64,000 bases of DNA from Rhizophagus irregularis (lineage: Eukaryota), in contig NC_089434.1 of the NCBI RefSeq assembly GCF_026210795.1, positions 1,736,001 through 1,800,000 of the forward strand, in the 5' to 3' direction. This document shows positions 16,914 to 64,000 of the stretch, piece after piece (position 1 is the stretch's first letter; each line of letters begins with the position of its first letter). The notes below the pieces were generated by a model. It saw only the letters and a program-made list of their open reading frames with translations. It was not told the DNA's origin and did not search any database. The position numbers were made by a program, and so were the translations under genes.

Positions 16914-17204
16914 AATGAAAATTAATTACGAATTCAATCAATAATATTGGATTAATAATAAAAAAAATTTTTGAATTTGATAAAAAAAAAAGCATGAAAA
17001 ATTTCAGAATAGGACTTTTAAACAATTTATATTCTATTTCGTAAGTAAGTTTCCGCGATCAAGGATCAGCGTTTGTAAAATTGCGCCAATTTCTTTCTTT
17101 AGCAAATCATTTCTATTCTAAGATTATAAAACCTTTTATTTTATATTTTTACATACAAAATTTCATTCAACAATGGAATTAAAAATTTTGAGTAATTTAC
17201 GATC

Positions 17205-22749: not shown

Positions 22750-24920
22750 TTTTTTGTAAATTTTGGGTTCAAGAACGGAATGCAAAAATACATGGTACAT
22801 TTCACAATAGGTGTTGTTTTTTGTGATAGTAGATGTATAATAGAATAAGCGTAATTCGCATAATATCAAATTGTAGTATCACCAAATTTCAGATTTTTTG
22901 ATTGATAAAATCATTGATCATCAACAATCAATAAATGTATATTTTATTTAGATTGAGTAAATTTACAAGCAACTTCATTTAAAATACTACTTAATGATTA
23001 ATTATAATATAATCATACGCAGTAATCTTTAATCTATCAAAATTTTGCACTTTAATATTATACAACCCAAATCTCTTCACTTCATCTTTAAAATCAAAAC
23101 AATTCATCATCATAAGTTTTCACAAAATTAAATTTTTTAATAGCCAAATACTTAACCCTTTTCTTTTTCATAATATATTCTTTTATAGAGGGTAAAATAC
23201 TTTGGTCATTAAAGTAATAACAGATTAATAATTTCTTAATAAAGGTATTTTGAGAATTCTTTTGAAATACTTCTTCAATGTGGTAAAGTTTCAAATGTAA
23301 ATATTTTAATTTAGGAGGAAGAATTTGTCCTAAATTTTGTAATATTAGTGAACTATATTCAGTTCGATCACCATGGACTGTACATTAATATTTTCAATTA
23401 AATATAATTTTTGGTACGTAAACTGACTTCCAATTGTATAAAAATCAAAACTAATTTTATATTTTTACAATATTTCAAATAATAATATTTGTGATACTTG
23501 CTATTAAACCTAAAGTTATTGTATTTAAAGTATTTGAACAATTATATATATTTGATGATAATAATGATTTAAATAAAGATAAATAATTTTTATTTATTAA
23601 AATTTTCTGTAAATGAACTATTGATTGTAATATGGAATTTTTAATTATCCTACATTGAGTAGGGATTGGAACCGTCAAAAAAAAGCTTAACCGGTTAATA
23701 ACCGGTTAATTAGAGCGTCTAACCGGTTAATAGTCGGTTAATTAATCGGTTAATTAACCGGTTAATTTGTAATGAGGCTAACCGGTTAATAACCGGTTAA
23801 TATATAAATTTTATATTTTAACGTGTGTTTAGAGGCCTATTTTTTGTATTTTAACGCGCGTTTAAAGATAAATTTTTGTGTTTTTAACTAAATAGTATTA
23901 TTTAAGAGTAATTTCTGGTAAATATTTATATTAAAATGTATACATTAGTAAAAAATTACATACAATATATTGTAATTACTTACTACCCAGTCATGCAGTG
24001 GTCACCGGTATCAGCACTAAGTTGAAAAGTTTTTTAATTATATTTTTAGTTCTATCCGAAATTCCATTCCAATTCTGATGGCCACTGCAGTATTCAAATT
24101 TTTGCATTTTTTCTTATTTAAAATACTATACCCGATCATATGCTGATTTCTGCATAAATCAAGGTTATAACTTTAGAATATTTTAACATAAATAATGTTA
24201 AATTATAAATATCATATGCAATATATTATATTAAAATATAAGATTGCAGGTTTATCATCGAATCTATTAGGGTGGGCAAAATTAAAGTTAATGCTAGTAA
24301 AGTTAAAGTTAGAAGTTGGCTAGGAATTACTAATTTAGGATGATCTGTATTTTAACCGGTTAAGTTAGCCGGTTAATTAGTCGGTTAATTTAACCGGTTA
24401 AATTAACCGGTTAACCGTTTTTTGAGAGGTCTTAACCGGTTAACCGCCTTAACCGGTTCCAATCCCTAACATTGAGTGTCATTGATACTATAAAATTTCA
24501 AATTTCTAATATTGTGAATAAAATTTGTATTCTGTAAAATTAATTCAAGAATATTATTGATAAATACGTTACAAAAAATCATTGTGTCCTCAATTTCGAG
24601 GGTATGTAAATTTATTTCATTTTCAAAAAATATTGTTAATAGTGGTACATATATATTTAACCTATCAATATGATATAGTGAATGTAATTTAACAGATAAA
24701 ATAAAATTATATGTATTTAAATATTTTAAAAAACTATAGTGTATTTGAAGGTAATGAATTATTTATTTGATTTCATTTTAATATCATCATTTAAGTAAAT
24801 ATTAATAACACGATATTTTGATTTTCCCATAATAACGGAATCGTTAAACGACACCATAATCTGTTAACTAAAATACATGAATGTAAAGTTGAATGATCCT
24901 TTTGGAAATATTTTATAATT
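22750..24920 (-). pseudogene. F-box-like (Glomeromycotina-type) pseudogene interrupted by a hAT-type element
   Basis: Minus strand 24919-24821 translates IIKYFQKDHSTLHSCILVNRLWCRLTIPLLWEN. Downstream fragment FIKKLLI...ILPSIKEYIMKKKRVKYLAI at 23094-23294; frames broken in between. Confidence 0.75.
23660..24468. mobile_element. 809-bp non-autonomous hAT-type element
   Basis: 15-bp TIRs TAGGGATTGGAACCG / CGGTTCCAATCCCTA; perfect 8-bp TSD ACATTGAG (23652-23659, 24469-24476); subterminal clusters of palindromic AACCGGTT. Confidence 0.93.
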
Positions 24921-26688: not shown

Positions 26689-28966
26689 TTAAAATCCATC
26701 TAAAAATAGAATACATATAATAATATAAATAAGTAATTAAGATATCATTTATACAATATTAAGAAAATATTAAGAAACTAACCATCAGGAATCTCAAATT
26801 TATCTTGATCTTCTGAATGAAGGTTTGGATTATTATTTATTTCGTCATCATCTATAAAAGGACAAAAATATTTAATTTAAATATTGCAAAAATAAAATGA
26901 AAATTTATAGTAAAAAACATTACTTACCATTAACTGATCCTTTCATTTGTTGCATTGTTTCTTTCTTATGATCATTTTGAATGTCTAAATTTTTAAATAA
27001 ATAAGATTATAATAAATATTTTCTAATAAACGACTAAAATTTAAAATAGTATTACTTACCATTCTTTGAACTTATTTGTAAGCTTTTAAATACTTTAGAT
27101 AATCTTTTACTACCACCTAAAATTGAGATAAATTTTGTATCATTATCTCAAAAATTTGAATATATAAATAAATTACCTTTAATAATACTATTTATTCTTG
27201 ATGTTTTATTAATTCTCTGATCGTTTGAATTATTAAAATCTTCAACTAAAAAACGAAAATTTGATTAATAAATATTTCATCAAATGAAACAATCAATAAA
27301 TACCTACTATTATCAGGAATACTAAAATCATATGTTTTACTATGAAATGCTATTTAAAAAATAAGAAAAATAGGTTATAAATTATTTAATAGTTAATAAA
27401 ATAACAATAAAAAAGCTAACCTTCTTGTTCTTCTATAATGTATAATAATTTAAATTAAAAAAAATTAGTAACGTCATCATATCAAACAAAAAACTTAGCA
27501 AATAATACCTTCTGTTGCATTTTTTGGTTCGGGTAAATTTTCAAATTGATGAACTTTGCTCGTAAATAATCTGCTGCTTATATAATTTATGCTAGTTTTT
27601 ATTTCAAAATTATTCATTGCTTTTGATTGGAAAAATTCATCTGGCATATTTTGATATGATAGATGAATTTCTCTTATTTTTTCCTGAAGAGATTTAATAT
27701 CAGGTCTTTTTAATGGATCAGCATCCCAACATTGTACCATTAAATTTTTATATTCTAAAGGAATATCTGACATAATTTCTGGTCTCATACCATTAATTAT
27801 ATCCATTGCAAGGTTATAATCATCATGCTTATAATCAATAAATGGCGAATATCCAGATGAAATTTCCCACATAAGTATTGCAATACTATAAATATCAGAT
27901 GCAAAAGTAAATCCTTTTCCATTAATAACTTCTGGTGCTATGTAAGGAAGATTTCCATATATACTTTCCGATGATTTATCAGCAGGTCCACAAAATCCAA
28001 GATCACCAATAAACCATCTATCATTATGTTGTGAATATAATATGTTTCCGGAGTGCAAATCTCTATGAATTGCTTTTTCAAGTTGAATAAAATAAAGTGC
28101 ATCAATTATTTCAAAAGCAATTCTAATTTTTTCTTTCCATGTAAGTAGATTATAATATTGTTGTAAATATTTTCTTAAATCCATATCCAATTTCATCATT
28201 ACAAGCATGTAATTTCCATTTGATAAATTTTGTGTTAAACCATAACATCGAACAATTTCTGCCCATTTATTATTTATAGTTAAATGTGAGTTAGCCTAAA
28301 TGATACATGCCATTGTTAATATAAAAAACTTTAAATCTCATAAAAAAATTTAAAATATAATCATATTGTGTATACCTCTTCAAACCAACTTTGATTTGCA
28401 TTTTCAACATTTTCTAATTTTTTAAGTACTACCTTTTCATCTCCAAATCTTTCTAATTGCTGTTCACTAAAATTCCATTTTATATAACTTCCACCAATCC
28501 AACTTGCTGTATAAATTTCAGAAAATCCACCTTTTGTTAGATATTCAATATTTTTTAAATTATTATATGGAATCCATTCAGCTACCGTATCTGGCACAAG
28601 TGTTTCTAATTGACATTTCTGTATTAAATTATCAATATCATTATTTCCGGATGTCCAATTTTTAAAATTTGCTTTTAAATAATTTCGAACACAATATTCA
28701 CAATATGATGTAGCTAAACATTCTTGATTACAATTTTCACAAATTCTTTTTGTTCCTGAATTAGAAAGAACTTTATTTCGGTCATAAGTCTCAGTTATGT
28801 AATTTATCGCTTCAGTTTTTTCATCATCTGTAAGAAGTTTATCATCAAGAATAATTTGTTTTTGAAATTCATATTGTTTGTGCATGTCAGTGTGAATATT
28901 ATAATCAATTAACGAATATGCTCTCTGAACTGTCGCATAAACTAATTCATATCGGATAGTAGACAT
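26689..28966 (-). CDS. TKL-like protein kinase, copy K3 (multi-exon)
   Basis: ORFs 28361-28966 and 27495-28208 carry the kinase motifs HRDLHSGN/DLG/APE. Micro-exon AAGAACAAGAAG is present; the last exon is D-G-F-stop after a tttttag acceptor at 26700. Confidence 0.9.
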
Positions 28967-31239
28967 AATGCAATTTTTATTATAAAGGTTTAAAATGAAA
29001 ACTTTTTTTTATTTTATTATTAAAATAAAAATAAATTGTAAAAATGAAATTTTTTTTTTCAAAAAAAAATTAAAATTCAAAATTCCGAAACAAAGAATTT
29101 TGGAATGATCTGAAATGTTATGTAACAATTACACAAACAAGTTTAAAATAGACATCATAAACTATTTTTAAACATGTTTATCGCTATAATAAATTTTACA
29201 TTTTCTATAAATAAATACTGTAACTAAAAATAAAAATACATCTAAGTGTAAAGTTATAAAATAATTTCTTTTAATTTGACGAAAGAATTAAAAGAATGAA
29301 AATAGTAGTGATTATATTATCGTTACTTCGTGGCTATGATTTTTTTTGCAAACTGAAAATTTTCTTGTAAAATCAGTGAACCAAAAAAAAGTATATATTA
29401 TGTAAAAAGAATAACTCAATTCTATATATTATAAAATTTTCCTATAATACTAACAAATTTATCAATAAAATAAATAAAAAATTTTGAACAGTGTCTCAAT
29501 TTATAAAATTCATAAAATTATAATTATTAAATAGTATTTATTTTTGGTTTCAAATTTTCACAGCAAAAACCTATAAGAAAATAAACAACATGTTAGAAAA
29601 AACGTTCTTTTATAAAGTTATCAAAAGTCAAGTTCATAGTTCAAATTTCTATAATATTGTCTTGCAAGTTGATAATGCACCTCTTAATACTTTTCCGCCA
29701 AAAACTAGATCGAATCAATATAAACGTAGGAACATACACATAATATTCGTACAATAGAAGTAATTATACAGTAAATGTAAATTATTTTATGCACTTTTAC
29801 GATGATATAAATATTCTCATCTATAAGCATTTGATCTAAAAAATATATCTTAAACGAGAAGTTAAACATCAACATCTCACTTTCGGTAGTAACATTTTTA
29901 AGCTTGTTTTTATCATTGTAAGCGATGTCAACCTTTCAAAGGTACGGTTCCTATGATTAACTTTATCACTTATCTCTCGATAGATAAGAAACTTGAGATC
30001 TCCAATTTTATCACAATCGATTTAACGTCACTAATAAGGTTATTATTACAAACGTTAACCGAGAAAGTATCACTAAAAAGAAATCTTTCCTAGGAATGAT
30101 ACAACCATTTCGGAGATAATTCTATGAAGTGATAATAAAATGAATTTTGAAAGTTTGAAGGTATATATATACTTGCAAAAATCTTTCCGGATTCATCATG
30201 ACTAATAATAAAATAGACTCTTGTTCAGTGGATTATAATGAATAAATAATAAGTAAAAAAATTAATTTATTAGTTAAAAATTTATGCGAAAGAAATGTTT
30301 AATATGATTTACATGAAAAATTCTCATGAGTATTTATCATGAGTATTTATCATGAGTATTTGTTGAATTATTGTTATGAAATTTTTCGGTCATACGATAG
30401 CCCGCATTTGAGTGCGGAAAATGTGACTTTGTTACAAACCTAATTTCAGAATTTTTCATGGAAATGAGTCATGAGCCAAAAGAGACGAATCTTGATAATT
30501 CGCAAAATAAAAATGCCATATATCACAGCCGGCTTATCTCATATTAGAATGTCTGAATGTACGATAGAGAATTCAGAGATCTGTTGGTCATCATTTGCCA
30601 TTGATCAAGGACCGCTTCAAATAGAAAAGACTTCATTTTTATTGAAATTTAAAACTACCAATTTATACACGCCGTATTACCCTTAAATAATCCGTCCAGA
30701 TTTTATTTACATAATTACTTTTTTTATTAATAAATTTATTAAAACGTCATGTGAAATTAAATTATGTCCTGGTAAATAACGACCAGTCACGTGACATAGA
30801 AAATTCCTAACTATTCTTTTAAAATATATTAACTAGTTTGGGTTTGAAAAGGAGGACCAAAAATAAGAAAAAAAAATATTTTCTGGTTTTGAAAAAAAAA
30901 ACTGAATAAAAAAAAATAATAAAAAAAAGGTAAGCGGCAACACGATATACTGCGGCTGATCGCATCACCCAGGGGAATAAACTACCGTAGTATCATAACA
31001 AAAAAAAAATCTGATCAAGCTTTCCTGAATTAGCCACAAAAATCTTCACGAGTCAACCAACTGAAATAGATCAGACGCAGATATCGCAGATATATCGTTA
31101 TTTAGGCCATCTATTAGTCATGACCATGAAAAATTACTCATATTGTCATATTGTCAAACAATTGTATTATGCAAGATACTATATATCTTATTATTAGTCA
31201 CTGTGTATTCGAAAAAGTATTTATATACCCTCAATACCC

Positions 31240-37200: not shown

Positions 37201-38297
37201 CAATATAAGTTGCAAAGAACATAAAGCCTAAGAATATATATTTTGTTGGTCGTTTCACTAGATTAAACTATATTATCTCAATCTAATTATAGATTCGGAA
37301 AGAAATAGTTGACAATAATGTTTGGTTTCTTTTCCCTTTTTTCTTTCCTTTTCATAGCAAGAATATTTTTCTTAAATTTTTTTTCAATGAAGTACAGTAT
37401 TGATGAGGGTACAAATAATTTATTGATGGTTTAGCGCAAGCCAACATTATTAACAATTAGTATGTAACAATGTATATATAAAGTAAATATTATTTATATA
37501 GCTAAAATAGGTACAAATGAACAGTCCGAAAACCTGAAAAACGTTAACTGGTTAAGAACCAGTTAAATAAACAATAGTGAAAATTATGAATTTATGAAAA
37601 TATTAATATCTTCCAATATTATTGAATATTGTTCATCGTAAGTGAAATTAGAACCTACTGTAATTTTGATATCAGGATAACAAATGTAAACTCACAAAAC
37701 TCTTACGAGCATAAAAAAGGCCAGTAACTTTATGCTCCGCAAACTGAAATGCATCCCAAAAATTTTTGATTAGAATATCTAACGTATTACTAAGAAAACG
37801 GGAATAATTATAAGTCTGTCGCATTATTTAAAATTCTTTTATAAATATAAAAAAAATCATTTTATAAAAAATTCTAAAAAATTGTCTAACAAAAAAAAAA
37901 ATTACAGTCAAAAAGGATAATCCATGGTTCGAAAATAATATGAAAATTAATCTTTTTTTTTCTGAATGATAGAATTTAAATATTCTGTTTAAATATCCTG
38001 TTGTTTTATTATGGGATATTATAATATCCTAAGGACATTCCAAATTTAAAAGGGAGAGATCAAACTAAAAGCTAAGTTGATAATCATATTACATTGAAAT
38101 AATATATCTTTATCATAATGTGATATGTATTATTTTCGATTATCGACCAAAACAGATTGCCCGAGTCACGTGATTTTATCGCAATTGTGTTACATTCTTA
38201 ATTAGTTCATTGTACTACTTTCTTTTTTCCACTGCAAAAAGACTGCAATAAATGTACCAAAAATTTTAACCTAAATAAATCATTTTTACACCTAATA

Positions 38298-38750
38298 ATG
38301 AAAAAAATATACTCAACATCCATTTCCAAGTTTTACTATACTAACAGGAGGGAAGTCTGAGTACTGCTGGAAGCGCTAAACAACCATCGGATATCAGGAA
38401 GTGCAGGGGCTACTCCATCAACTCAATCAGAGGGAAGTGCACCGTCAACTCAAAGAGAACGTTTCGCCGTTGGAGATGTATTACCTAAATTTAAAGATTG
38501 GGCGATGCAAACAAATAATTTCCTTCTTTTGGGTAATAGAATCATCAGTCACGCGGAGCAAAACAAGATTTTGCAGGAATATACGAAGCTCAATGATTTC
38601 ACAAATAAACTAAAGGAGGAGCACCGATGGACAGATGAAAAAGAGACTGGAGAGAAATGGCCAAAACCAGCTTCACCATTAGCTGTTGAGATTACAAGGA
38701 AGAAAGAAGATGATGAGAAGGATGGGAAGAAGAAGCAACGTGAAGATTAA
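38298..38750 (+). pseudogene. Small coding-like region of unknown function
   Basis: Single frame from ATG 38298 to TAA 38750 with one TGA at 38358; TACTAACAG branch/acceptor-like motif at ~38339-38347; bracketed by GTCACGTGAT at 38165 and 38794. Confidence 0.4.
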
Positions 38751-39444
38751 GAAGGGCACGACCAACAAGAGAAAATTACATTTGTTAATCGAAGTCACGT
38801 GATTTCACGTAAAAAATATTACCGATAATAAATTTTAGAATAAATGTAATTTAATAGTTTAGTTTATTAACTTTAAAAGATTGAATAATTGTTTACTGGG
38901 CGTGGGGCCGTTGGGACTCATCTATTTTTATAGCGCTAAGCTTCAGTATTTATTATAAATTTTCACTCATTTTGTTTTTCTTTTTTCAAGGATTAGGAAC
39001 GGGTTTGATTTTCTTTTATATTTATTATATTTTTTTTTTGTTTTGTTCTTCATTAAGATAGATATACTCTTGTTATAGAGGCGTTTCGGTTTTGCACGGG
39101 CGTTTCTAGGTATCTATATTTTATGGATGCAATTTTATCCTAATAAAAGATACGTTACAAGTTTTAATAAAAAAAAAACAAAATACGTCATGATTAGGTA
39201 ATTAAAAGCCATAATATAACCATACGTATTGATACTGTTGAGTAATTGATTTAATTGATTGCAGATATTGATATCATTTATACTTTTTCTATGATCATTG
39301 TACAACAAAAAAATAATATTTATACAGTTCTTTTCTTTTTTTTAATACATATCTCTCCTCCATCTCTTTCATTCCTCCTTCAAACACAACTAAATACTTT
39401 TTTTATAAATACTTTCTTTTCAAATGAATATCTAACAAATACCT

Positions 39445-39808
39445 TTTTTCACACGCAAATAAATACCTTCTTTTTTCACGCGTAAGTACAAAAGAAATAC
39501 CTTTTTTTCACGCGCAAGTAAATATCTTTTTTTTCACGCGCAAGTAAATATCTTTTTTTTCACGCGCAAGTAAATATCTTTTTTTTCACGCGTAAGTAAA
39601 TATCTTTTTTTCACGCGCAAGAGAAATACCTTTTTTCACGCGCAAGTAAATATCTTTTTTTTCACGCGCAAGTAAATACCTTTTTTTCACGCGCAAGTAA
39701 TTTTTTCCACGCGCAAGTAATTTCTTTTCACGCGCAAGTAATTTCTTTTCACGCGCAAGTAATTTCTTTTCACGCGCAAGTAATTTCTTTTCACGCGCAA
39801 GTAAATAC
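39445..39808 (+). repeat. Tandem array of TTTTCACGCGCAAGTAA (14 copies plus 1 degenerate; ~26-bp then ~21-bp period)
   Basis: CACGCG cores counted at 39477, 39509, 39535, 39561, 39587, 39612, 39637, 39663, 39688, 39708, 39729, 39750, 39771, 39792. Confidence 0.95.
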
Positions 39809-40251
39809 TAACTACTAAGACGGAAAAAAAAGATATATCAACATCAAGAACTGTATTTACTGCCTTTGGACAACATATGGGTAATGTCTTTCATTAGCTA
39901 TTAAAACTTGTTTGTAAGTGAAAAACCATTCTAACTACTCCTGTCAGTTTAGACGTTTTGTGGTTCTTGCCAAATTTAGTACCTACTGTATTTACGATAC
40001 TGCAATTTTATTACTGTTATCATTCTTCCTTTGGTTATGCATCGCGAATATTCACTTGTTTTCACTTCTCAATAGAGCTTGTATAGGAAGTAATGAATAC
40101 TAAAAATACCGCTGAACTTACCGCTCTGGAAAACTCTTCTCTTGAAGCCTCTATTCACGCTCCAGCTTCTGGTTCCGTTTCTTCTACTACTAGAGCTCCT
40201 TCAATAGTGGACAAGCTGACACTAAACGAAGCTAGGTCATATCATTAAGTG

Positions 40252-40689
40252 GTAAGTATAATTATAATAGTTCACCGGATGGACGTATGTGTAGGTGTAA
40301 CACTGCAGGGTTCACTGAAAGTCTTCCGGATGGTGAACTGTTATAATTGACATAGGGGTTTATGTGCTCGTAGTACGTACCATTTGCTACAGGCTAGTAG
40401 CTATCTGCTTTTGTGCACGAAGGCATAGCTACAATGATGCCATATAGGTGATCCCCAAGCTGATCCATATGGAAGGGAAGGCCAGGTTCCCGTTGGAAAT
40501 GACACATATCTCCTATGCCATGTCACTTACTTAGTAATTGTTATTGAATACTATATGAGTCCATTTACCATAGATCCTATGATGGTCACATGGGTGTCCT
40601 GGGGTTCCCTGCTTAGGCATAATTAACAGGGTGGTAAACCTCATATGGTATGAGGTGATAGTGACTAAAAAATTTTGTAAATTTTGTAG
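40252..40689 (+). ncRNA. Putative highly structured RNA within an intron-like segment (family unassigned)
   Basis: GTAAGT donor at 40252, TGACTAA at 40662-40668, TTTTGTAG at 40689. Long helices 40260-40276/40332-40348, 40351-40366/40503-40517 and 40531-40559/40640-40668 with nested hairpins and G.U pairs, all paired by eye. Confidence 0.55.
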
Positions 40690-43206
40690 GGCATGTATCA
40701 ATTCATTTTTTCTTTAAAATAGGTGTCTTAACGTTGGCGCCAGGTGAAATTCTTACTTCTTATGCAATTATGGCTATTAATCAGGGTAATTTTGAAGGGC
40801 AGTTGAAGATGTAAACTGGGATATAGATTTTTACTTCCATAGACAAATAGAACTCTTCATTTTTTCTTCTCTTTTTAGTTTTATTTTTAGTTTTTTTTCT
40901 TTTTATTCTTGTTGTTTTCTTTTTTCCTTTTAATTATAGATGTAACTATTCTTTCTTTTTCGTTTCTCATTCTGTTTGATGTTACATTTAATATCGACTT
41001 AGTAATATTATGTTATTTTGTTAAATATGTAGCTTTTTATTTAAATGAAAAAGAGATAATAAGTTTTTTACATTCATGATATCTTTATAATTAATTGGAT
41101 TTGGGAAAATTTTTGTGTATAAATGTATATGAGCGTATGAAGCTATATAGTACGTATATAAGATAATAAAGTACACAGACATAATTGTATTAGTGTAAAA
41201 AACATATAAACAATGGAAGATACGACTAAAATATATTTATTCTTTATTTTAGAATTTAAGCTGTCGGTATGTAATAACTCTATTCATATAAGAAAAAAAA
41301 ATATTTCGTAAACGTTAAAAAAAAATGAAATATATTCCATGAAAAAATTTTCAATAATTCAGATTTGAACACTGTATATCATTCTTTTTCTTCTTTCAAA
41401 ATAAACGTTCATTAAACTAGTTAAAACATATTCTTGAATATACCAACTTGTAGCATAAATAGATATGGTAATAATTAAAGCCTTAAATTCTTTGATTAAA
41501 TATACACAAAAATCCATAATGTATCTGTAGGATTATTAATCATGGCTGATTCAAATGATGTATAAAGTGAATAAGTGAATAAGTGAAACGAAAAAATTTG
41601 AAAAGATATAATAAAGGAACAAGGATTTTAAATTAAATCATTTTATTAAATGAATAATATAAGTATTTAAAAATATGAATATTTACTAACTCATTAAAAA
41701 ATATTTTCTGGTACTATATTGAGAATACACTTATTTGAACCCAATTTGTACGATATATGATGCTATTTCCTTTACATGTGTAAACTAAGAATGTGTTTAT
41801 AGATTTAAAATTTTAACCAGGTGATATTATTATTATGAAATAATCTTTTGTAGATTAAATGAAAATATGACTTCAAAAGTGTAGTAATGTCAGTTGTATT
41901 TACTAATATTAAAAAATCATATTACTTTCGTACTTTTCGTTAAAAAAAAGAAAATTGAATTATTTTTTGTTTTATTAATTGTAATCATAATTATATATCA
42001 ACATTATATAGAATGGTTATCGGTTCTATTTTTATTAATAAAAAATCAATCTTTTTATTTTTATTTTTCTAATTAAAAAAAAAATTTACTTTGTTAATTT
42101 GATTGTTAAATTGGATCTGTCCACATGATCACTTTTCAATAATAATTCCGCAGCTGAATCGTTACTGTGCGACCGTTGAATGATCATCACATGAACTGAA
42201 TCAGCTGATCAATGATAAATCCACAATCATTTGATATTACATTAGATATAAAATATTTCATTGCACCCACGAGTCAAAATTCAAGTTGAAGACTCAAGTA
42301 TCAACTCGAGTTATATAACTTGGGTACTTTTCAAGTCAGAAATTTTTCTTGACTCATTTTCCACATGTAAGTTTACATAAGGTTACATGGATTTTTGTAA
42401 GAACACAAGATTACAAACTAACAAATTTCCTGATGGAAACTAAAAATAACTAAAATATAAAGTCATAAAAGATTATTTTATCCAATTATGGTAAATTGTA
42501 TAGTATAATGAAAGAAGCCTTATATTCTTTGCAAGAACTATTGGTAATTGTGAACTTTATGAAATTATCATGACATAAACAAATTCTGTAAAAATATTCT
42601 TAACAAGAACATTTTATTAAGTAGAAATATAGAAATTTCAACAAAGTAATATCTGATATCTGACGAGACTAAACCAAATTTAGTGTGATTTGACCTTGGC
42701 CCAATTCGTCAATCAATGGTGAATTTTGCATTATAAAATTGTTAGTTCAATATTCTAGTTTGTGTTTATAAATTTATTGACACATAACAAAAAAACAATA
42801 GACTTTTTTATCTTGTATAAAATATTAAACTGTATGTTTAACAAATAAAATGAAATAAACAATATATTTATTAACAATTGGTTGTAAAAATAATACATTA
42901 AGTAACTAAATATGTTATCCCACTTTTCTAAAATTATTAATAAATTCCAGGCAAATATAGCCAGAATACAGTTAGAGATAAATACATCATAATATACTAA
43001 GAAAAACAGCCTAAAATCCGAATGGATAATATCAGGACGGTTTTCTGATATTAATAAGGCCAAAGTTTCTGAGTAAACGTAAATTATAATTCAATTTTGT
43101 ATGTTAAAACTTAACCTGACTTAAAGGAAGGTTACAACTCAAGATAAAGATTTAAGTAATTAATAAAAACTATTTATATTAATAAGTCAATTTATGATAC
43201 AATTTA

Positions 43207-45476
43207 TCATAATTCTAAAAAAAATGAGTGAATACAAATTAATAAAGAGTATATTTTTTTTTTATATTATTTAAAAATAATGATTATACTAACCATAAGG
43301 AATTTCCAATTTATTTTGTTCTTCCGAATGAAGGTTTGGATTATTATGTATTTCATTCTCATCTATAAAATATATTCTTTAATTTACAAATAATACAAAT
43401 TAATTAAATTTTGATAAATATTTTTCACATACCATTAATATTAATCATCGTTCCTTTCATTTGCTGTCGTATTGCTTCTTTTTTATAATAATCTCGTACA
43501 TCTTGTATTTAAATAAAAATCATTGAATATTAATGAAATAATAATATTATCATTATTAAATATTTTAGATGAATATATGATTGTACTTACCATAATTTAG
43601 ATTTACTTGTGACGTTTCAAATATTTGGGATAATCTTTTGCTATTAACTGAAATTATTAACATACAAATTAATGATTATATCATAATTTAATGCATAAAT
43701 AAAAATTAATTACCTTTAATAGAAATATCACCATTTTGAGTATTCAATTTATCAAAATCATCAACTAAAGTAAGCGTAAGTAAGTCGTAATACAATAATT
43801 TTATACATATAAATAATTACTTACTATTATCAGGAATAGTAAAATCATATGATTTACTATAATATCCTATTTGCATAATATGATTTTAAAATTATTTATA
43901 TTAATAAAATCTGACGAACTTTAAATAAAAATTATCATTACATACCTTCTTGTTCTTCTATTATTATAAATAGTAAAAAATTAAGATGTTAAATAATAAT
44001 AAATTTATTAATAATAAGAAAATAACTATACCTTCTGTTGCATTCCTTGGTTCAGGCAAATTTTCAAATTTATAAATACCACTTGAAGACGACCTATCAT
44101 TTATATAATTTGTTTCTAAACCATTAATTTTATTTATCTTTGGTTGTAATAATTCATTTTGCATATTTTGAAATGATAAATGAATTTCTCTTATCTGCTT
44201 CTTGAGCGTCTTTATATTAGGTCTTTTTAATGGATCGGCATTCCAACATTGTTTCATTAATATCTTATATTCTAAAGGAGTTGCTGATACAATTTTTGGT
44301 CTCATACCGTTAATAATCTTCATTGCAAGGTTATAATCATGTTCATGATCTATAAATGGTGGTTGTCCGGATGAAATTTCCCACATAAGCATTGCAATAC
44401 TATATATATCAGATGCAAAAGTATATTCGTTTCCAGCGATTATTTCAGGTGCTATATAAGGAAGATTCCCATATATACTCTTTGACGATTTATCGGCGGG
44501 TCCACAGAATCCAAGATCACTAATATACCAATAATCATTGAATTGTGAATATAATATATTTCCAGAATGTAAATCTCTATGAATTGCATTTTCTTTAAAA
44601 ATTTTATAAATTGCATTAATTATTTCATAAATAATTTTAATCCTTTCTTTCCATGTAAGCTGATTGTGATTTTGTTGTAAATATTTTCTCAAATCAAAAT
44701 CCATTTTTCTCATTACAAGCATATAATTTCCATTTAATAGATCTTGTGTTAAACCGTAACATCGAACAATATCTTCCCATTTATTGCTTATAGTTAAGTG
44801 TGATTTAGCCTATATAGGGATTTAAAATTTTTTTTAATTAATAAAAATATAATGAATTTTAAATAAACAAATTTAGATAACGTACCTCTTCAAACCAATT
44901 TCGATTTGCACATTTAACATTTTCTAATCTCTTAAGTATAACCTTATGAGTTCCAAATCTTATTAATTGTTGTTTTTTAGAATCCCATTCTTCATATTTT
45001 CCATCAATCCAAATTGCAGTATAAATTTCGGAGAATCCACCTTTTGTAAGATATTTAATATCTTTTAAATTATTATATGGAATCCATTCAATTATTTTAC
45101 TTGGTATGAAAGTTTCCATTTGACATTTTTGTATTAAATTATCAATATCATTATTTTCAGATGTCCAATTTGAAAATTTTTTTTTTAAATAATTTCGAAC
45201 ACAATATTCACAATATGATGTAGCCAAACATTCTTGATTACAATTTTCACATATTCTTTTTGTTCCTGAATTATATATAATTTTATCTCGATCATAAAAT
45301 TTATATAATATTTTTATCGCTTCAGTTTTTTCATCTTCCGTAAGAGATTTATCAGATAAAAGTGTTTGTTCATAAAATTTATATTGTTTGTGTATGTCAT
45401 TGTGAATATTATAATCAGTTGACGTAAATGCTTTCATACCCGCTGTATAAACTAATTCATATCGAATATTGGACAT
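43207..45476 (-). CDS. TKL-like protein kinase, copy K4 (multi-exon; closest to K2)
   Basis: ORFs 44859-45476 and 43964-44722 show the same exon series. Introns and flanks align with K2. Confidence 0.9.
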
Positions 45477-46853
45477 AATGAAAAATTTTTCAATTACAAA
45501 TTCAATTAATATTATTAAATTGATATACGGTAAAAAATGAGCGAAATTTTAGAGTCCGTTCAGTAGAATATCCGATTTTGTGTTAATCCGGATAAAACGG
45601 ATAATTAAAAAAAAATTCCTTTACAGTGCCGGCCCTAAATTTTATAAATCACGTGACTTCGGATAATAGTTTGGACGAACTTATTCTACTTTACTCTGGG
45701 TTCAAGGTTATTATCCTAGACCCTATGTATAAATAATTTTTTTAAGTATCTTTCCCGTGATAGTTCAATTGAGGTCTAGGTTATTATCTATTTTAAGGAC
45801 ACTCAAATAGCTTAGCAACCGGAATATCCGTGTAAAATACGGGGTTTTTAATCAATTTATATTCTATTCCGCAGTAAATTCCCACGATCTAGGATCAGAC
45901 TTTCACCAATTTCTTTCTTTAGCAATTTATTTACTACTCCTTGTATTCTTGTAATACATTTAATTTATTTCTTTAAATATTTTAAAATGGAGATCTAATT
46001 TTGAACAAATTTCATTCAATAATAAAACTTTAAGTAATTTACGTGTTACTTATTTGTCGTACTACATCTTTGTGAATTAATTATGTTGATTATGATTGGT
46101 AAACTTTTTCTTTTGTTTGTTTACGCAAATTTCTTTATAACATTGAATAAAGAAACAGACAACAATAATAACTTTTTTTATTGTTTATATCTTGCATGCA
46201 TTGTAAATAACTTTATTAAAAAGGAAAAGTAAAAGCCAATTTCATTGCATTGCTGAAAATATGGTCGAGTGGATTTTATTATTTATTATCAATTATCGTT
46301 ATTTTTATACATTTTATTATTTATCAATTATCAAGATAATGAATATTTCGTAACATACTGTACATGACAGATTAGAAGTCAGGATTAAAATATATATGTA
46401 AATATTAAGTTTTATGTCAATCACTCAATTCAGTCCGGCGCAAGCCTCTGTATCGGATAATGTTGGCTTAATCCTGAACAGAATGATTTATTTAAGAATT
46501 TATCTGCGTTGTCGATAATACTATCATCGTTGCAAATATTATATTTTCGAAAATGACCGATTTTGCTTATGTTATATGTATATATACACACACTTTTAAT
46601 AATAAGGTTTCATTCTTTATACCTGAAAATATTCAGGATTATTAGATAATTAGTTTTCTGATAGACTGATTTAGAAGATCTGGACGAATGTGTAGATAGA
46701 GAAACTGTGGTTGACTTACATGAAATAGTTCCCTCATTAATTAGTGAAAAGGTCCGAGGGGAATAAAGATTCCTCCTATTCATTTGAGACAGACTCATCC
46801 GAAGATTTTGATTCAGTTGAGACAATCGTGGTAAGAGAAAAAAAGGCTATCCC

Positions 46854-48328: not shown

Positions 48329-49571
48329 ATTTAATTTACAGTATATTCTATAATTAGACACCTCTAGTTTAACATAAAAATGCCACAACTCTGTCAACAA
48401 TTTTATTGTTAAAAAGGAGCTTCGTTTGGCCCAAAAGATTCAAAAGCTCCACGTTATTGTGCTACGCATAAGCCAATTGGTCATGTTAACGTGAAGACAC
48501 AGTGTCAAGAAGATGGCTGTTATAAGTTTCCTCATTTAGGTTTCTCTAGCTCAAAAGCAACTTCATGCGTCACTCATATGAAAGATGGAATGATTCACTT
48601 AAGGGTCAGAAAATGCTTAGAACCTGGATGTACTACACGCGCGGTTTTTAATGTTGTTGGCTTAGATAAGGGCAAATTCTGCGCTAAACGCGCTAAACAC
48701 AAAAAACCAGAAATGATTGATATCCAAACTAAAATTTGTAAATATTCGGGTTGTCAAAAAAAGGCGCTCTTTGCTGTAGAGGGTCATCACAAACTTTCTG
48801 TGGTCAGCATAAGCAGGATGGCATGATTATTATTGCAAGCAGAAAGCGCGCACACTCAGATTGTTATACTCGTCCTTACTTTAATGTCCTGGGAAAGCAC
48901 AAGGCCAATACTGCGCTAGACACAAAACAGCTGGTATGGTTGACGTAGTAAATCGGCGGTGTGAAAAAGCTTGTTGTATGACCATACCGACTTTTAATCT
49001 TTTGGAGAAAAAAGTGCACGTTTTTGCGAAGCCCACCGAAACCCTGAAATGGTTAATGCTGTTGGCCCGAAGTGTAATAATATTAATTGTCAAAAAAGAG
49101 CACTATATGTTATAAAATGTCACGATGCTTCACACATAAAGATAAAGGTATGATAGCACAATCTTCACGTTTATGCATGATCTCAGATTGTAAAAAGCCT
49201 GCTACTCACGGACTTTCTAACCCAATTAGGTGCGAAAAACACTCCACAGATAATATGGTTGATCTAGTCCAAAAAATATGTTCTAATTGTGGATTACTTG
49301 ATATCCTTTTACAGGATCAAAAGTGCGCTGATTGTAGCACTTATACTAAAGCGAAAGCAAGAGCACGTTTGGCAAAGCAACTTCGAGTGAAATATATTTT
49401 AGACGTGAACAATATTCTATACGAAGCATACGATTCCATTGTAGAAGATTGTGTGTGTTCAAAAAAGCGTTCAGACTTTGTCATTGATGCAGACACACAT
49501 AAAGTTGTACTGGAAGTAGATGAGTATCAACACAAGAAAGGGGAATATAACTGTGAGGTAAAAAGAATGTG

Positions 49572-49806
49572 ACGGATGAATTTCATAATAAAATTAATGA
49601 AGAAATCGTTCATCATAACATCATGTTGTAGCACAACCCGCTTTTATCATTCTAAGTAAACTTGCCCTTAACAATGCTACAAAAATTGGAGAGGCAAGCT
49701 TATCCGAGGTATATACGACGTACGCGCCTGAATTTACTTCCACACTTATATACTTCAGAGAAGCTATTTACGGCATACGGGTCTAATTTTACCTGTATAC
49801 TTATTC
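49572..49806. mobile_element. 235-bp insertion splitting the endonuclease at R-M|W-D-I
   Basis: Bounded by TGTG on both sides (49568-49571, 49807-49810); removing it with one TGTG restores AGA ATG TGG GAT ATT. Confidence 0.7.
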
Positions 49807-49863
49807 TGTGGGATATTGCGCAAGCACTTGGCATCCCTACTCTCTTTATTCGCTATAATCCTG

Positions 49864-50359
49864 ATAGTTACGAAATGTTCAACGGAATTACAAAAGATAG
49901 TAATGATAGGGAGAGAAAACAAGAATTGTTATATGCTTGAGCGATGCAGTAAAATCGCCATCTGCTGAAGAATTGTCGTGAGGAAACATGCTGACGAGAG
50001 AAAGTATCCTGAAAATGGAGGAAGTTTATTATAGTTACGGAATGTTCAATGGAATTACAAAAGATAGTAATGATAGGGAGAGAAATCAAGAATTGTTATA
50101 TGCTTGAGCGATGCAGTAAAATCGCCATCTGCTGAAGAATTGTCGTGAGGAAACATGCTGACGAGAGAAAGTATCCTGAAAATGGAGGAAGTTTATTATA
50201 GTTACGGAATGTTCAACGGAATTACAAAAGATAGTAATGATAGGGAGAGAAATCAAGAATTGTTATATGCTTGAGCAGTAAAATCGCCATCTGCTGAAGA
50301 ATTGTCGTGAGGAAACATGCTGACGAGAGAAAGTATCCTGAAAATGGAGGAAGTTTATT
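49864..50359 (+). repeat. Three tandem copies of a 167-bp unit
   Basis: Copies start at 49864, 50031 and 50198; nearly identical, with the third missing 5 bp. Confidence 0.95.
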
Positions 50360-50877
50360 AAAAAAAGAACAGTTTAATAATAAGGATGATAATATCACTC
50401 TCCCTTCTACACAAAAGTTGCTAGGATCCAGAATTCCTTCGAGTTGTCTATCTGTTCTATGATGGATACGATAGCACTAAGTACAAGATAACGACTATAT
50501 CAGAAGTTTGATTCAAGAATGAAATACATGAAAAAGCAGATAAAGCATTATGAATTTGTATAACTATTGTGAAATTGACCCAAACAAACATTTTGTTTCT
50601 GTCATGTTTTTCTGTATTTCTGTGATGCAATAAATTTTTTTTTTAAAATCATCATTAGTGAGAAGGTTATGAACAATTTTTTTCCTGAGATCTATAATCG
50701 AAAGAAGGGCGTACACTCGTTAAAATAGCATAACACATCAGTTTAGTAGTGATCGTTTAACGGACACATGTTTCCGATATCCTACTGCGCATTTTTCAAC
50801 AGGTGAGAAAATGTCTCTAGCAATCTTTTTTTTTGCTTTGCATCACTATTTTCACTAACTCGGTTCACAATTTCTTA

Positions 50878-54080: not shown

Positions 54081-54660
54081 ACTTTTTATTTATTTATCTA
54101 TTTATTTGCTTTTTTTTTATCTATTTATTTGCTTTTTTTTTATCTATATATTTGCTTTTTTTTAAAAAACAAAACAAAGCGATTTATTATTTTGAATCAA
54201 TTCAAGCAAAGCTATTACTTGATATGATAATTTAATTATTTTTTAGCCCATTAATTTCTTTGAATTTTTTTTTATTTTTAGGTTTATTTTTTTTAAAAAA
54301 AAATATTAATCATAGAAGAAAAAAAAATACTTTTTTTTATTGTATAATGCCGTGACATAGTAACAAATTTTTTTTTTGTACAAAAAGTACAAGAAAAATT
54401 ACATTTGGCATTTAGGTAATACGCTTCTAAGTTCTAACCATAAATGTATACTAATTTAATGAGTTTATAATAAATAAGATTACAACTTTATATGGTGTAA
54501 CATTATACAATAGTAAATCATGCTAAATTTGAATGTATAGTTTTAAAAGGGCGTAAAGACTTGTTTTTTGTTTCTATTTGTTTATTATACCAATTTATTG
54601 TTTAGAGTTGATAAATATAGTAGATATTCTCTTTTTAACAAATTAAAATTTTATAATATT

Positions 54661-56974
54661 ATGTCTACTATTCGAGAGGGATTAATTCATGCAACAATCA
54701 ATAAAGCAATTACATTAATTGATTATAATAATTACGATAGTGTACACAAACAATTTGAATTTGTAAAACAAACGATTCTTGCTGATAATTCTCTTACAAA
54801 TGATGAAAAAATTGAAGCAATAAGTTCATTTAATAAAGATTGTAATCGAGAAAAAATTGTTCGTAATGAAGGGACAAGAAGAATTTGTGAAACTTGTAAC
54901 CAAAAATGTTTGGCTATATCATATTGTGAATATTGTGTCCAAAATTATTTAAAAACAAAATTTTCAAGTTGGTCATCTGGAAATAATAATATTGATAATT
55001 TAATACAAAAATGTCAAATTGAGTCACTTATGCCAGATATGATAGTTGAATGGATTCCATATAATAATTTACAAAATATTGAATGTCTAACCAAAGGTGG
55101 ATTTTCTGAAATTTATACAGCAACTTGGATTAATGGAGGATATGAAGAATTGGATTCTGAGAATCATCAATTACAAAGATTTGGAACTCATCATGTAATA
55201 CTAAAAGAGTTAGGAAATATTGAAAATGCAAGTCAAAATTGGTTTGAAGAGGTTTGTAATAAACTAATAATTTACTTTTAAAGGATTTAATGTTTAAATT
55301 ATAATTTGAATTTAAAATTATTTTTTACAGGCTAAATCAAATTTAACTATAAGTAATAAACATCCATCAATTGTTCAATGTTTTGGTTTAACACAAAATC
55401 CATCAAATGAAAATTATATGCTTGTAATGAGAAAGAAAAATGCTAATTTAAGAGAATATTTACAACAAAATCATAATCAACTAATATGGGAAGAAAGAAT
55501 TAAAATTGCTTTTATAATAATTAATGCACTTTATTATATTCATAAAGAGAATTCAATTCATAGAGATTTGCATTCTGGAAATATACTATTATATTCCAAA
55601 TTTAATAATTATTGGTTTATTAGTGATCTTGGATTTTGTGGTCCAGCAGAAAAACCATCAACAAGTATATATGGAAATCTTCCTTACATAGCACCTGAAA
55701 TTATTAATGGAAAAGAATATACTTTTAAATCTGATATTTATAGTATTGGCATGCTTTTGTGGGAAATTTCATCTGGACAACCACCATTTAATAATCATGA
55801 ACATGATTATGATCTTGCACTTAATATTATTAATGGTATAAGACCAAAAATTATATCAGAAATTCCTTTGAAATATAAAAATTTAATGATACAATGTTGG
55901 AATGCTAATTCATTAGAAAGGCCTGATACTAATATGCTTTTAAGAGAAATAAGAGAAATTATGTTATATTATCATAATAACCCAAATGAATTACCTCAAC
56001 TAAATGTAAATATAGATAAAAAAATAAACTATGAAAACAAAAGCAACAAATTATTTACAAGTAAAATTTATAAATTTGAAAATTTACCTGAACCAAAAAA
56101 TGCAACAGAAGGTATAATTTATTAATATTTGTTAACTATATTTAATTTTCTCTGTTATTATTATTACTAATTCAATCATTTTTTTTTAATTTAAATAATA
56201 ACAGAAGAACAAGAAGGTGATATGAATTTAATACTTATTCTTATTAAAAAACAATTAATCATTAACAAATTAAAAATATATCTGTTTATTTAATAGCATT
56301 TTATAGTAAATTATATGACTTTAATATTTCAAAAAATAGTAAGTGTTTTTAAGTTTATGTTTAATTATATGGTCTAGTGTAAATAATTATTCTATTTTTA
56401 GTTGATGATTTTGGTCAATCAAGTAATCAGAATAGTAAAAGAATAAATAATATTATTAAAGGTAATTACAAATATTCAGCCTATATTAAATAATTACTAA
56501 CTAGTATTTTAATTTTAGCTAGTAGTGAAAGATTGTCCAAGGTATTTAAAAATTTACAGATAAATTCAAAAAGTGGTAAGTAAATTATTAAATAAATAAA
56601 TACTCAAATTAGAGTTTATTTGTTTATTTATAAAAAATAAGTACTTATTAAATGTTATTTTATTGATAATAGTTGATATACAAAATAACAATTATAGAGA
56701 TACAATATATCAGCCACAAACTGGTGATATTGATGGTAGGTAAACTATTATTTATTTATTAAAAATTTTTTATTAGACAATAACTAATTGTATATTATTT
56801 TTGTTTCATAGATGATGATGAATGTAATAATCCAAATCTTCATTCAGAAGAACAAGAATAATTGAAATTCCTAATGGTTTGTTTATTTTTTTTCAAAATT
56901 ATATAAAACTATTTATATTAATATTTACTAATGCATTTATTTATATCATTTATTTTAATTTAGATGGATATTGA
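54661..56974 (+). CDS. TKL-like protein kinase, copy K5 (inverted relative to the others)
   Basis: Exons read directly: 54661-55251, 55331-56111, 56205-56216 (12 nt), 56297-56338, 56402-56461, 56519-56575, 56673-56735, 56812-56876, 56964-56974. An in-frame TAA at 56859-56861 trims the last few conserved residues. Confidence 0.9.
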
Positions 56975-63548: not shown

Positions 63549-64000
63549 AATGCAATTTAATTACAAAAGTTTAAAAAGAAAAATTTTTTTATTGATTTAA
63601 AAAAAAAAATAAGTATATGAACTGGGAAAAGAATTTTTGGACAACGAAATTTAAGTTTCAAAAGATTCCCGAATAGTGTAACCATAAATTCGAATTTTTA
63701 GTATGATCAGCAGAATAATGTCATGTGACAATTACACAATTAAAGTTCAAAGATAAACAAAATAATATATTTTTAGATATGCTTGTTGATCATCCCTATA
63801 AATAATTATTTTTTTTTAAAAAAAAAACTAAAAATAGAAGATAGCGTGATGAAAAATTTAAAAATAACATTGACAGTAGTGGTGATAGTGATACATGAAT
63901 TTTTTTTTTTATACATGGAAAAATTTCTTGTAAAAAAAAGCTTTAAAATTAGTAAATAAAATAAAAATAAATTATATTATATGAAGCAGAATAAATGAAT

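What the first reader, a model, noticed from the sequence alone, without database searches (positions are those of the whole stretch)
40252..40689. Intron-bordered ~440-nt segment folding into three long G.U-rich RNA domains
Seen: directly after a perfect GTAAGT donor, almost every base can pair. Domain 1 is a 17-bp stem (16 WC + 1 G.U; 40260-40276/40332-40348) with inner helices. Domain 2 (40351-40366/40503-40517) closes a junction of four hairpins (40370-40390, 40397-40432, 40440-40472, 40475-40491). Domain 3 (40531-40559/40640-40668) has 20 WC pairs, 6 G.U, a tandem G.A/A.G and one other mismatch, and it buries the branch-like TGACTAA. Transition-type mismatches in these stems are G.U on the + strand rather than A.C, which points to selection on a + strand RNA rather than a DNA foldback. 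ACTTAC at 40525-40530 is complementary to the donor, which could allow a splicing switch. I recognise no tRNA, snRNA, SRP, RNase P/MRP, hammerhead or group I/II core. Inference: an unclassified structured intron or intron-hosted ncRNA, or an introner-like/retroelement-borne RNA.
Basis: partly seen in the sequence, partly recalled or inferred. Interest (0 to 1): 0.85.

Follow-up and report, generated by a model that had tools for sequence, protein, structure and literature searches.

The report
Self-sealing folded intron of mycorrhizal fungus
An intron repeated at many places in the genome of a root-symbiotic fungus is predicted to fold into three large RNA domains and carries an internal stretch exactly complementary to its own predicted lariat joint, so once spliced out it would likely survive as a sealed circular RNA of a kind that matches no catalogued RNA family.

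Summary
40252-40689 folds on the + strand (z -3.7); stems D1 and D3 are as described, with G.U:A.C mismatches 7:0 against 88:103 in other inverted repeats of the window. It is a GT-AG intron: one RNA contig of a related copy skips exactly these 438 bases; no DNA run shows that joint. It is not a lone intron: the whole ~1.5-kb unit, with an upstream CACGCG array and a micro-ORF, is multi-copy in Rhizophagus irregularis. A divergent relative keeps hairpin H2 (7 of 8 pairs, 9 of 16 letters changed). New here: 40525-40535 is the exact 11-nt complement of the predicted lariat junction (branch A40668 joined to G40252), so D3 continues across the 2'-5' bond; 20 of 20,000 shuffles and 0 of 148 other donor/branch pairs reach this. 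Best reading: a non-coding host yielding a sealed 417-nt lariat circle that escapes debranching. No circle read was seen, full-length homologues could not be fetched, and function is inferred. No Rfam hit; ribozyme, RNase MRP, snoRNA, telomerase and introner tests failed.

The parts
39457..39807 (+). Tandem array of 21-26-nt units with core CACGCG, directly upstream of the unit; likely promoter (inferred)
   Evidence: TRF, 13 copies; 14 of the window's 16 CACGCG sites lie here; the same unit stands upstream of other copies (loose ends before 39813-39816)
39881..39947 (+). Ordinary short intron candidate (GTAATG ... CTAAC ... CAG, 67 nt) of the host transcript
   Evidence: sequence; gene models P0004/P0026 fit this join; splicing not seen in RNA
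40093..40248 (+). Micro-ORF, 51 aa here (59 aa in most copies), S/T/A/P-rich, stop 3 nt before the donor; coding status uncertain
   Evidence: no Pfam family, no Atlas hit; 5 of 7 listed substitutions synonymous (by hand), but frame and upstream part differ in divergent copies (loose ends)
40252..40689 (+). Structured GT-AG intron, 438 nt, 41% GC (window 26%)
   Evidence: joint 40250>40689, skip 438, GT..AG, in one RNA contig; gene model P0011 makes the same join; folding
40252..40668 (+). Predicted lariat loop / circle, 417 nt, filled by D1, D2 and D3
   Evidence: circular fold -142.8 kcal/mol, z -4.94, 0 of 60 shuffles; only 1 of 9 closure points tested lowers the energy
40259..40349 (+). 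Domain 1: 19-bp stem with a weakly defined branched top
   Evidence: 4 of 5 substitutions seen in the stem keep the pair
40351..40517 (+). Domain 2: closing stems and four hairpins (H1, H2 firm; H3, H4 weak); 40350-40401 is the part shared with the most divergent relative
40397..40432 (+). Hairpin H2, 15 bp capped by a UGCA tetraloop; kept with compensatory changes in a divergent relative
   Evidence: z -4.55; X17 record 3 loose end read by hand
40525..40535 (+). Junction seal: exact reverse complement of 40664-40668 joined to 40252-40257
   Evidence: its translation is intact in 27 of 30 gene models that cover it
40531..40668 (+). Domain 3: 29-position stem with 6 G.U and a three-way junction; ends on the predicted branch A
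   Evidence: variant 40536 A>T turns the A.G mismatch into U.G in about half of the depth
40662..40668 (+). Branch-site motif; A40668 is the predicted branch nucleotide
   Evidence: second A of CTAA by the fungal consensus (recalled); not mapped experimentally
40690..40814 (+). 3' exon (second acceptor at 40722, in frame, 33 nt further); no conserved reading frame evident
40938..41125 (+). AT-rich downstream block shared by the copies; possible 3' end region. The unit's true 3' boundary was not found
   Evidence: depth profile and records running over the end

Best explanation
A spliceosomal intron in a ~1.5-kb unit repeated at many loci of Rhizophagus is predicted to fold into three domains and holds an 11-nt segment exactly complementary to its predicted lariat junction, so the excised intron would likely persist as a sealed, 417-nt folded circle that is probably the unit's real product. 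Steps: (1) Pol II transcription from the CACGCG array through short, poorly conserved exons (inferred). (2) Splicing at 40252-40689 (shown for one related copy, one contig). (3) Branching at A40668 (inferred from consensus). (4) After excision the exons are gone, 40525-40530 pairs with the donor and 40531-40535 with the branch site, giving one continuous helix across the 2'-5' bond that runs on into D3 (complementarity shown, helix computed). (5) The buried bond resists Dbr1, the 21-nt tail is trimmed, and a circle accumulates (inferred by analogy to stable lariats). (6) The circle acts in trans as a protein-binding scaffold or decoy through D2, the part best kept in relatives (inferred, weakest step). 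The family spread by DNA-level duplication of the whole unit, since all copies seen keep intron and flanks (inferred).
For: Folding z -3.7 linear and -4.9 as circle. G.U:A.C 7:0 against 88:103 in controls. Exact intron skip in an RNA run, absent from the 11 joints listed for 4 DNA runs. Junction complement 11 of 11 nt for A40668, at most 9 for the 11 other adenosines tested; 20 of 20,000 interior shuffles reach 11 or more; 1 of 149 donor/branch pairs of similar span in the window reaches 11, and it is this one. Closing the circle at A40668 is the only 1 of 9 closures that lowers the energy. The three domains fill the lariat loop from 7 nt after the donor to the branch A. The seal's translation is intact in 27 of 30 gene models, while the neighbouring pairing with the 3' exon is broken in 3 of them and by a 3-nt deletion in one DNA contig. 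Multi-copy: 54-153 contigs laid per DNA run; at least 6 loci under one accession series. Exons rearrange in divergent copies while the intron still aligns (joints and loose ends). H2 in X17 record 3: 9 of 16 stem letters differ, 7 of 8 positions still Watson-Crick, loop kept (by hand). Of 7 RNA records on the unit, 5 lie wholly inside 40252-40668, and one divergent one has depth 726 against 2-3 for the rest (weak hint only). [quoted passage not shown]
Against: No read or contig joins 40668 back to 40252 in 4 of 4 RNA runs (depth 2-3, contigs only, so a weak test). The splice rests on one 151-nt contig of depth 2 from a copy about 91% alike; one RNA contig runs unspliced across the donor; RNA libraries may hold DNA. 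The junction match was found after the fact, and 5 of its 11 nt belong to the D3 stem already selected; the branch A is not mapped and CTAAA is a weak consensus. The same pairing in the pre-mRNA would hide donor and branch site from U1 and U2. 3 of 30 gene models (one truncated subfamily) lack 40525-40542. Single substitutions at firm pairs are not significant: 7 of 9 transitions keep the pair, p 0.09, and both transversions break it (unphased, table cut at 40 of 179 rows). No full-length homologue could be fetched, so there is no alignment-based covariation test. The depth-726 contig is of unknown organism and only 52 nt of it align. The micro-ORF shows 5 of 7 synonymous changes, which hints at a coding host.
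Confidence: 0.47

Rival explanations
1. The structure acts in cis on splicing of a micro-ORF message: it shortens the long intron and holds donor and branch site side by side (zipper or clamp), or switches between hiding the donor, the exon end and the acceptor; the intron is then degraded normally.
For: Three alternative pairings of 40519-40530 are within 0.2 kcal/mol; the intron starts 3 nt after a stop codon; 5 of 7 listed ORF substitutions are synonymous (by hand); one spliced and one unspliced RNA contig; unchecked earlier notes describe clamp stems in other fungal introns.
Against: Pairing with exon or splice-site sequence is no better than shuffles (413, 159 and 312 of 500); the ORF's frame and start differ in divergent copies; a zipper does not need a conserved four-hairpin domain and a conserved tetraloop hairpin.
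Confidence: 0.2
2. The intron is, or descends from, a mobile RNA: a viroid-sized circle that entered the genome by reverse splicing and reverse transcription, or the cis signal of a non-autonomous element; the seal is the replicon's own rod structure.
For: Size, G.U-rich stems and closure as a circle; tens of dispersed copies, the intron part deeper than its flanks in DNA runs; a divergent version at depth 726 in an RNA run; one copy lies next to a helicase-like fragment (P0035).
Against: Copies share exons and the upstream array; no empty site among DNA joints; no terminal repeats, LTR pair or second copy in the window; no ribozyme core on either strand; no match in viral contigs; the minus strand folds much worse (-106.9 against -142.8).
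Confidence: 0.16
3. The intron is debranched and trimmed to a linear RNA, as intronic snoRNAs or insect RNase P RNA are; it may be a highly derived member of such a class.
For: Non-coding multi-exon host; precedent of intron-embedded, multi-copy RNase P RNA (PMC4287351, passages); a CR-I-like GAAAGUC at 40317 and a weakly complementary stretch at 40355-40362; a UGCA-capped 15-bp stem like an RNase III site (recalled).
Against: No Rfam hit down to E 10; no GARAR loop, CR-IV or S domain between the two motifs; the P4-like duplex is -3.2 against -9.4 kcal/mol for the competing stem; no properly placed C/D or H/ACA boxes; it does not explain the junction complement.
Confidence: 0.11
4. The long stems D1 and D3 are Dicer substrates and the unit is a small-RNA precursor family.
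For: Long imperfect stems; this fungus has miRNA-like loci (PMC6399891, passages).
Against: Branched tops and a conserved multiloop; none of the 5 of 10 mature sequences visible resembles the element (by eye); no small-RNA data laid.
Confidence: 0.04
5. A neutral DNA foldback or chance structure inside a repeat.
For: The window holds palindromic repeats with stronger z-scores; D2 alone is z -1.95.
Against: Strand-asymmetric G.U bias, compensatory changes in H2, exact intron boundaries and the junction complement.
Confidence: 0.02

Closest known systems
Stable lariats / circular intronic RNAs (ciRNA, sisRNA, slb-snoRNA; PMC12238851 passages and part of the reference list, PMC8609340 abstract and introduction)
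   Same: Spliceosomal origin, lariat loop as the lasting species, escape from Dbr1 helped by sequence or structure near the branch (predicted here).
   Different: Those described rely on C branch points, short GU/C-rich motifs or a hairpin closing pair, and are by-products of protein genes. Here an A branch would sit inside a continuous 11-bp helix formed by a third, internal strand; the loop is a three-domain fold; the host looks non-coding and is multi-copy.
Intron-hosted ncRNAs in non-coding or recipient genes (snoRNA hosts; insect RNase P RNA, PMC4287351 passages)
   Same: Pol II host, conserved intron, variable exons, several gene copies.
   Different: No snoRNA boxes, no P/MRP catalytic core, no Rfam match; the fold fills the whole lariat loop.
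Introners / introner-like elements of fungi (recalled)
   Same: Long, structured, repeated spliceosomal intron.
   Different: Copies keep the same flanking exons and promoter-like array; no empty site seen.
Viroids and viroid-like circular RNAs (PMC11210808, start of abstract)
   Same: About 420 nt, non-coding, highly paired, G.U-rich, predicted circular.
   Different: Genome-encoded, would be made by the spliceosome with a 2'-5' bond, no ribozyme found, no sign of replication.
Zipper or clamp stems in long fungal introns (earlier scan notes; unchecked)
   Same: A stem brings the ends of a long intron together.
   Different: Here the clamp is exactly in register with the lariat bond and the intron holds extra conserved domains.

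Membership tests
Spliceosomal (U2) intron | GT-AG ends, branch motif, removal from RNA but not DNA | tested here: met
   skip 438 GT..AG in 1 of 4 RNA runs, 0 of 4 DNA runs; one contig, related copy
Stable lariat / ciRNA | Branch junction placed in structure | tested here: met
   computed only: 11-bp helix across the junction, p(pair) 0.97-0.99
Stable lariat / ciRNA | Reads crossing the branch, RNase R resistance, loop more abundant than tail and exons | tested here: inconclusive
   no back-joint in 4 RNA runs; 5 of 7 records inside the loop; contigs of depth 2-3 cannot decide
Any Rfam 15 family | Covariance-model match | tested here: not met
   0 hits at E<=1 and at gathering; at E<=10 only FIE3, E 2, 21.5 of 40 bits, on the AT-rich 3' end
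RNase MRP / RNase P RNA | CR-I with a P4 partner | tested here: inconclusive
   GAAAGUC at 40317 and a possible partner at 40355-62 (motifs recalled); duplex -3.2 against -9.4 kcal/mol for the competing stem
RNase MRP / RNase P RNA | P5/P8 with GARAR pentaloop, S domain and CR-IV between CR-I and CR-V (PMC13184271, PMC10966300, passages) | tested here: not met
   only 27 nt, the 3' arm of D1, lie between the two motifs; no GARAR loop
Hammerhead ribozyme | CUGANGA and GAAA cores | tested here: not met
   no CUGANGA on either strand; one 1-mismatch site on the minus strand without the rest (motif recalled)
HDV-like ribozyme | Nested double pseudoknot P1-P4 | tested here: not met
   own descriptor found none on either strand; no Rfam hit
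Twister ribozyme | UAA-P2-GC, CCY-AA-GC loop and GAGGG linked by P1 and P2 | tested here: not met
   all three recalled motifs occur in order (40298, 40454, 40472), but P2 and P1 cannot pair (by hand) and the first motif is altered in other copies
Group I / group II intron | P/Q/R/S core with terminal G after an exon U; domain V | tested here: not met
   motif scan negative on + strand; Rfam negative
snoRNA (C/D, H/ACA) | Boxes at the ends, correct spacing | tested here: not met
   C-like and D motifs are not terminal or are 20 nt apart; no H box in the hinges, no ACA tail after D3
Telomerase RNA | Template complementary to TTAGGG | tested here: not met
   no CCCUAA on the + strand; telomere unit taken from recall and from the repeat at 10232-10389
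Introner | Same intron at unrelated sites, empty alleles in DNA | tested here: not met
   shared flanks, no empty site among listed DNA joints; contigs show presence, not absence, so unrelated sites are not excluded
Viroid / viroid-like RNA | No DNA form; RNA-to-RNA replication | tested here: not met
   present as multi-copy genomic DNA; replication not testable
Conserved structured RNA (general) | Statistically significant covariation in a full alignment | not testable with these tools
   no full-length homologue obtainable; fragments only: H2 compensation, single-site test p 0.09

The most novel reading that the evidence does not exclude
Arbuscular mycorrhizal fungi carry a multi-copy gene family whose purpose is to make a viroid-sized, three-domain circular RNA: the spliceosome closes the ring and a built-in guide strand seals the 2'-5' joint inside a continuous helix. 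The circle is abundant and stable and acts in trans, or is itself a domesticated or still mobile RNA replicon that uses spliceosomal lariat formation instead of a ribozyme.
Probability: 0.3. Interest if true: 0.9.

Novelty: new variant of a known kind. Interest (0 to 1): 0.7.

Why it matters
Stable lariats are known mostly as by-products; a dedicated, amplified gene family for a structured lariat circle with a sequence-encoded seal would be a new way of making a circular RNA and a new structured RNA class in a symbiont of most land plants. It gives a direct test of how structure protects a branch from Dbr1, bears on the old question of links between introns and viroid-like RNAs (recalled), and offers a design for making stable circles. 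It also shows that dozens of 'hypothetical proteins' in R. irregularis annotations are probably mis-translations of this RNA.

Tried and rejected
Presence/absence polymorphism: word shares of 0.57-0.65 in other DNA runs equal the stretch minus the intron, but all 30 bins were covered in 4 of 4 runs and no empty joint was listed; rejected. Guide for the ligated exons (40519-40529): 413 of 500 shuffles do as well; rejected. RNase MRP/P, twister, hammerhead, HDV, hairpin, group I/II, snoRNA, telomerase: see membership tests. Loop-loop pseudoknots: only 5-bp, G.U-rich candidates. H4 compensation: fragments disagree; not counted. Homologue hunting: no genome held; metagenome scans empty; viral scans empty; the single prokaryote hit L001 is a chance match in an unrelated coding stretch; protein searches returned only R. 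irregularis models and two unnamed ENA members; the representative-protein search never ran, so more distant relatives were not sought that way. X19 record 8 (41034-41070, AT-rich, under 90% alike) was dropped before the count of 7 RNA records... of 8 records in all. Literature: ten searches showed no description of this element in listings; supplements were not opened and could list these loci as small-RNA or repeat loci. Earlier scan findings by sequence, place and words gave nothing on this element.

Full report
Setting. The window is AT-rich (26% GC) with many kinase genes. Protein searches with frames of the locus return only gene models labelled Rhizophagus irregularis, so the source is this species or a close relative (inference). 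No genome was held.

Observation. The 438 nt fold at -142.7 kcal/mol, z -3.73 on + and z -2.49 on -. D1 and D3 carry the signal (z -4.35, -4.43); D2 as a whole is weak (z -1.95) although its closing stems, H1 and H2 have pair probabilities of 0.9 or more; H3 and H4 are about 0.5. 71% of bases pair. In the ungapped D1 and D3 registers G.U outnumbers A.C 7:0 (p 0.008); other inverted repeats of the window, found without regard to strand, give 88:103. This points to selection on a + strand RNA.

It is an intron. In RNA run X16 one 151-nt contig (depth 2, about 91% alike) joins 40250 to 40689, skipping 438 nt with GT..AG ends. The 11 joints listed for four DNA runs do not include it. Gene model P0011 makes the same join. 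X19 has one contig that crosses the donor unspliced.

It is a family. Each of four DNA runs gave 54-153 contigs on 39810-41200, of 80-100% identity, covering all 30 bins. Gene models place the unit at six or more loci under one accession series and at several loci in other assemblies. The models disagree on exons and frames and mostly translate pieces of the intron; none of the frames tested has a family of its own. Copies share the upstream CACGCG array (loose ends; 14 of 16 CACGCG sites of the window). In divergent copies the exon region is shortened or replaced while the intron still aligns (joints 39951>40260 and loose ends at 40204-40212). The 51-59-aa ORF before the donor shows 5 synonymous of 7 listed changes (by hand), but its start and frame differ in divergent copies, so a coding role is open.

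Conservation of structure. Only fragments were available. Best case: X17 record 3, one contig, aligns over 40350-40401 and continues with a hairpin that keeps the G-UGCA-C cap of H2; anchored on the loop, 9 of 16 letters of the upper stem differ, 7 of 8 positions are Watson-Crick, 4 by double change (read by hand; other gap placements change the count of double changes, not the helix). Overlapping loose ends suggest C-G to U-A at 40401/40428 (not phased). In D1's stem 4 of 5 substitutions keep the pair; 40536 A>T adds a pair to D3. Overall the single-site test is not significant: 7 of 9 transitions at firm pairs keep pairing (p 0.09), 2 of 2 transversions break, from a table cut at 40 of 179 rows.

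The seal. 40525-40535 is the exact reverse complement of 40664-40668 followed by 40252-40257. A40668 is the branch nucleotide by the CTAA consensus (recalled). In the lariat, G40252 is bonded to A40668, so the donor helix and the base of D3 form one uninterrupted helix. Of 12 adenosines near the 3' end only A40668 gives 11 nt (others 7-9); 20 of 20,000 shuffles of the interior reach 11; of 9 closure points only this one makes the circular fold more stable than the linear (-142.8, z -4.94, 0 of 60 shuffles). Among 149 donor/branch pairs 300-500 nt apart in the window, this is the only one above 9. The segment's translation is intact in 27 of 30 gene models; the 3 exceptions are one subfamily that also has an unrelated 5' part. 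Pairings with the exons are not above chance. The feature was found after the fact, and half of it is part of D3; given D3, the chance of the next six bases matching the donor is about 1 in 4,500 by composition.

Expression. Of 8 records laid from four RNA runs, one AT-rich match outside the unit's core was set aside; of the other 7, five lie inside 40252-40668, one is spliced, one unspliced. One divergent record has depth 726. These are contigs, may include DNA, and no back-joint was seen, so accumulation of a circle is not shown.

Mechanism. I commit to a Pol II host whose excised intron is sealed at the branch, escapes Dbr1 and persists as a 417-nt circle that binds proteins through D2 (0.47). 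Shown: sequence, copy family, one splice, complementarity. Computed: folds. Inferred: promoter, branch position, escape, function. Rivals: cis-acting splicing clamp or switch (0.2), mobile or viroid-derived RNA (0.16), linear intron-hosted ncRNA (0.11), small-RNA precursor (0.04), neutral foldback (0.02).

Comparison. No Rfam family matches. Recalled ribozyme, box and template motifs fail. A CR-I-like word resembles RNase MRP, but the elements that papers define for MRP and P are missing (PMC13184271, PMC10966300: passages). It would work like a stable lariat (PMC12238851: passages and part of the references; PMC8609340: abstract and introduction) and is organised like an intron-hosted RNA gene (PMC4287351: passages), but membership of the stable-lariat class is untested. 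Fungal structured-RNA surveys do not mention Rhizophagus in their main text (PMC5640933, PMC8216456: passages and word counts). PMC13465315 (abstract and outline), PMC9849065 (passages) and PMC6399891 (passages) do not describe it in what I saw. Ten searches found no description; supplements were not read.

Verdict. A real, undescribed, multi-copy structured intron with a statistically unusual seal over its predicted lariat bond. New variant of a known kind; interest 0.7; 0.9 if the circle proves to be the dedicated product or a mobile RNA (probability 0.3).

Noticed in passing
window 39457-39807: Array of 13-14 CACGCG-containing units, resembling cell-cycle (MCB/E2F-type) boxes by recall; shared by other copies of the unit.
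   Followed up: partly
X17 record 3, matching window 40350-40401: 207-nt contig at depth 726 in an RNA run where other matches have depth 2-3; a divergent relative of D1/D2 from an unknown organism.
   Followed up: partly
P0015, P0047, P0048; X6 records 22 and 24: A subfamily lacks 18 nt at 40525-40542; another record has an 18-nt gap within 40553-40680, possibly the opposite arm of D3 (not phased).
   Followed up: partly
window 40316-40327 and 40355-40362: RNase MRP CR-I-like word with a possible P4-like partner; G>A variants at 40356 would improve that pairing and break the competing stem.
   Followed up: partly
window 40671-40686: Two AAUUUUG words (Sm-site-like) in the lariat tail; may just be the pyrimidine tract.
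   Followed up: no
window about 4985-5620, 12330-12990, 23690-23800, 24350-24460: Palindromic, MITE-like foldbacks with strong z-scores and no G.T bias; the first two are related to each other.
   Followed up: partly
window 8369-11463: MULE transposase ORF (PF10551, FAR1) interrupted by a telomere-like GTTAGG run at 10232-10389, with further pieces on the minus strand.
   Followed up: no
window 48413-50360: ORFs with EsV-1-7 cysteine-rich repeats (PF19114) followed by a 167-nt tandem repeat; virus-like or element-borne fragment.
   Followed up: no
window 38166-38810: 129-aa ORF without Pfam match, flanked by GTCACGTGAT palindromes, just upstream of the unit.
   Followed up: partly
window 2908-4492, 15444-16925, 27495-29008, 43964-45548, 54547-56125, 62050-63560: Six copies of a two-exon-block kinase gene typical of this lineage's expansions.
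   Followed up: no
P0029, P0035: One copy of the unit is annotated as fused to a decayed helicase-like fragment (Pif1-type motifs by recall; weak AAA_19 hit).
   Followed up: no
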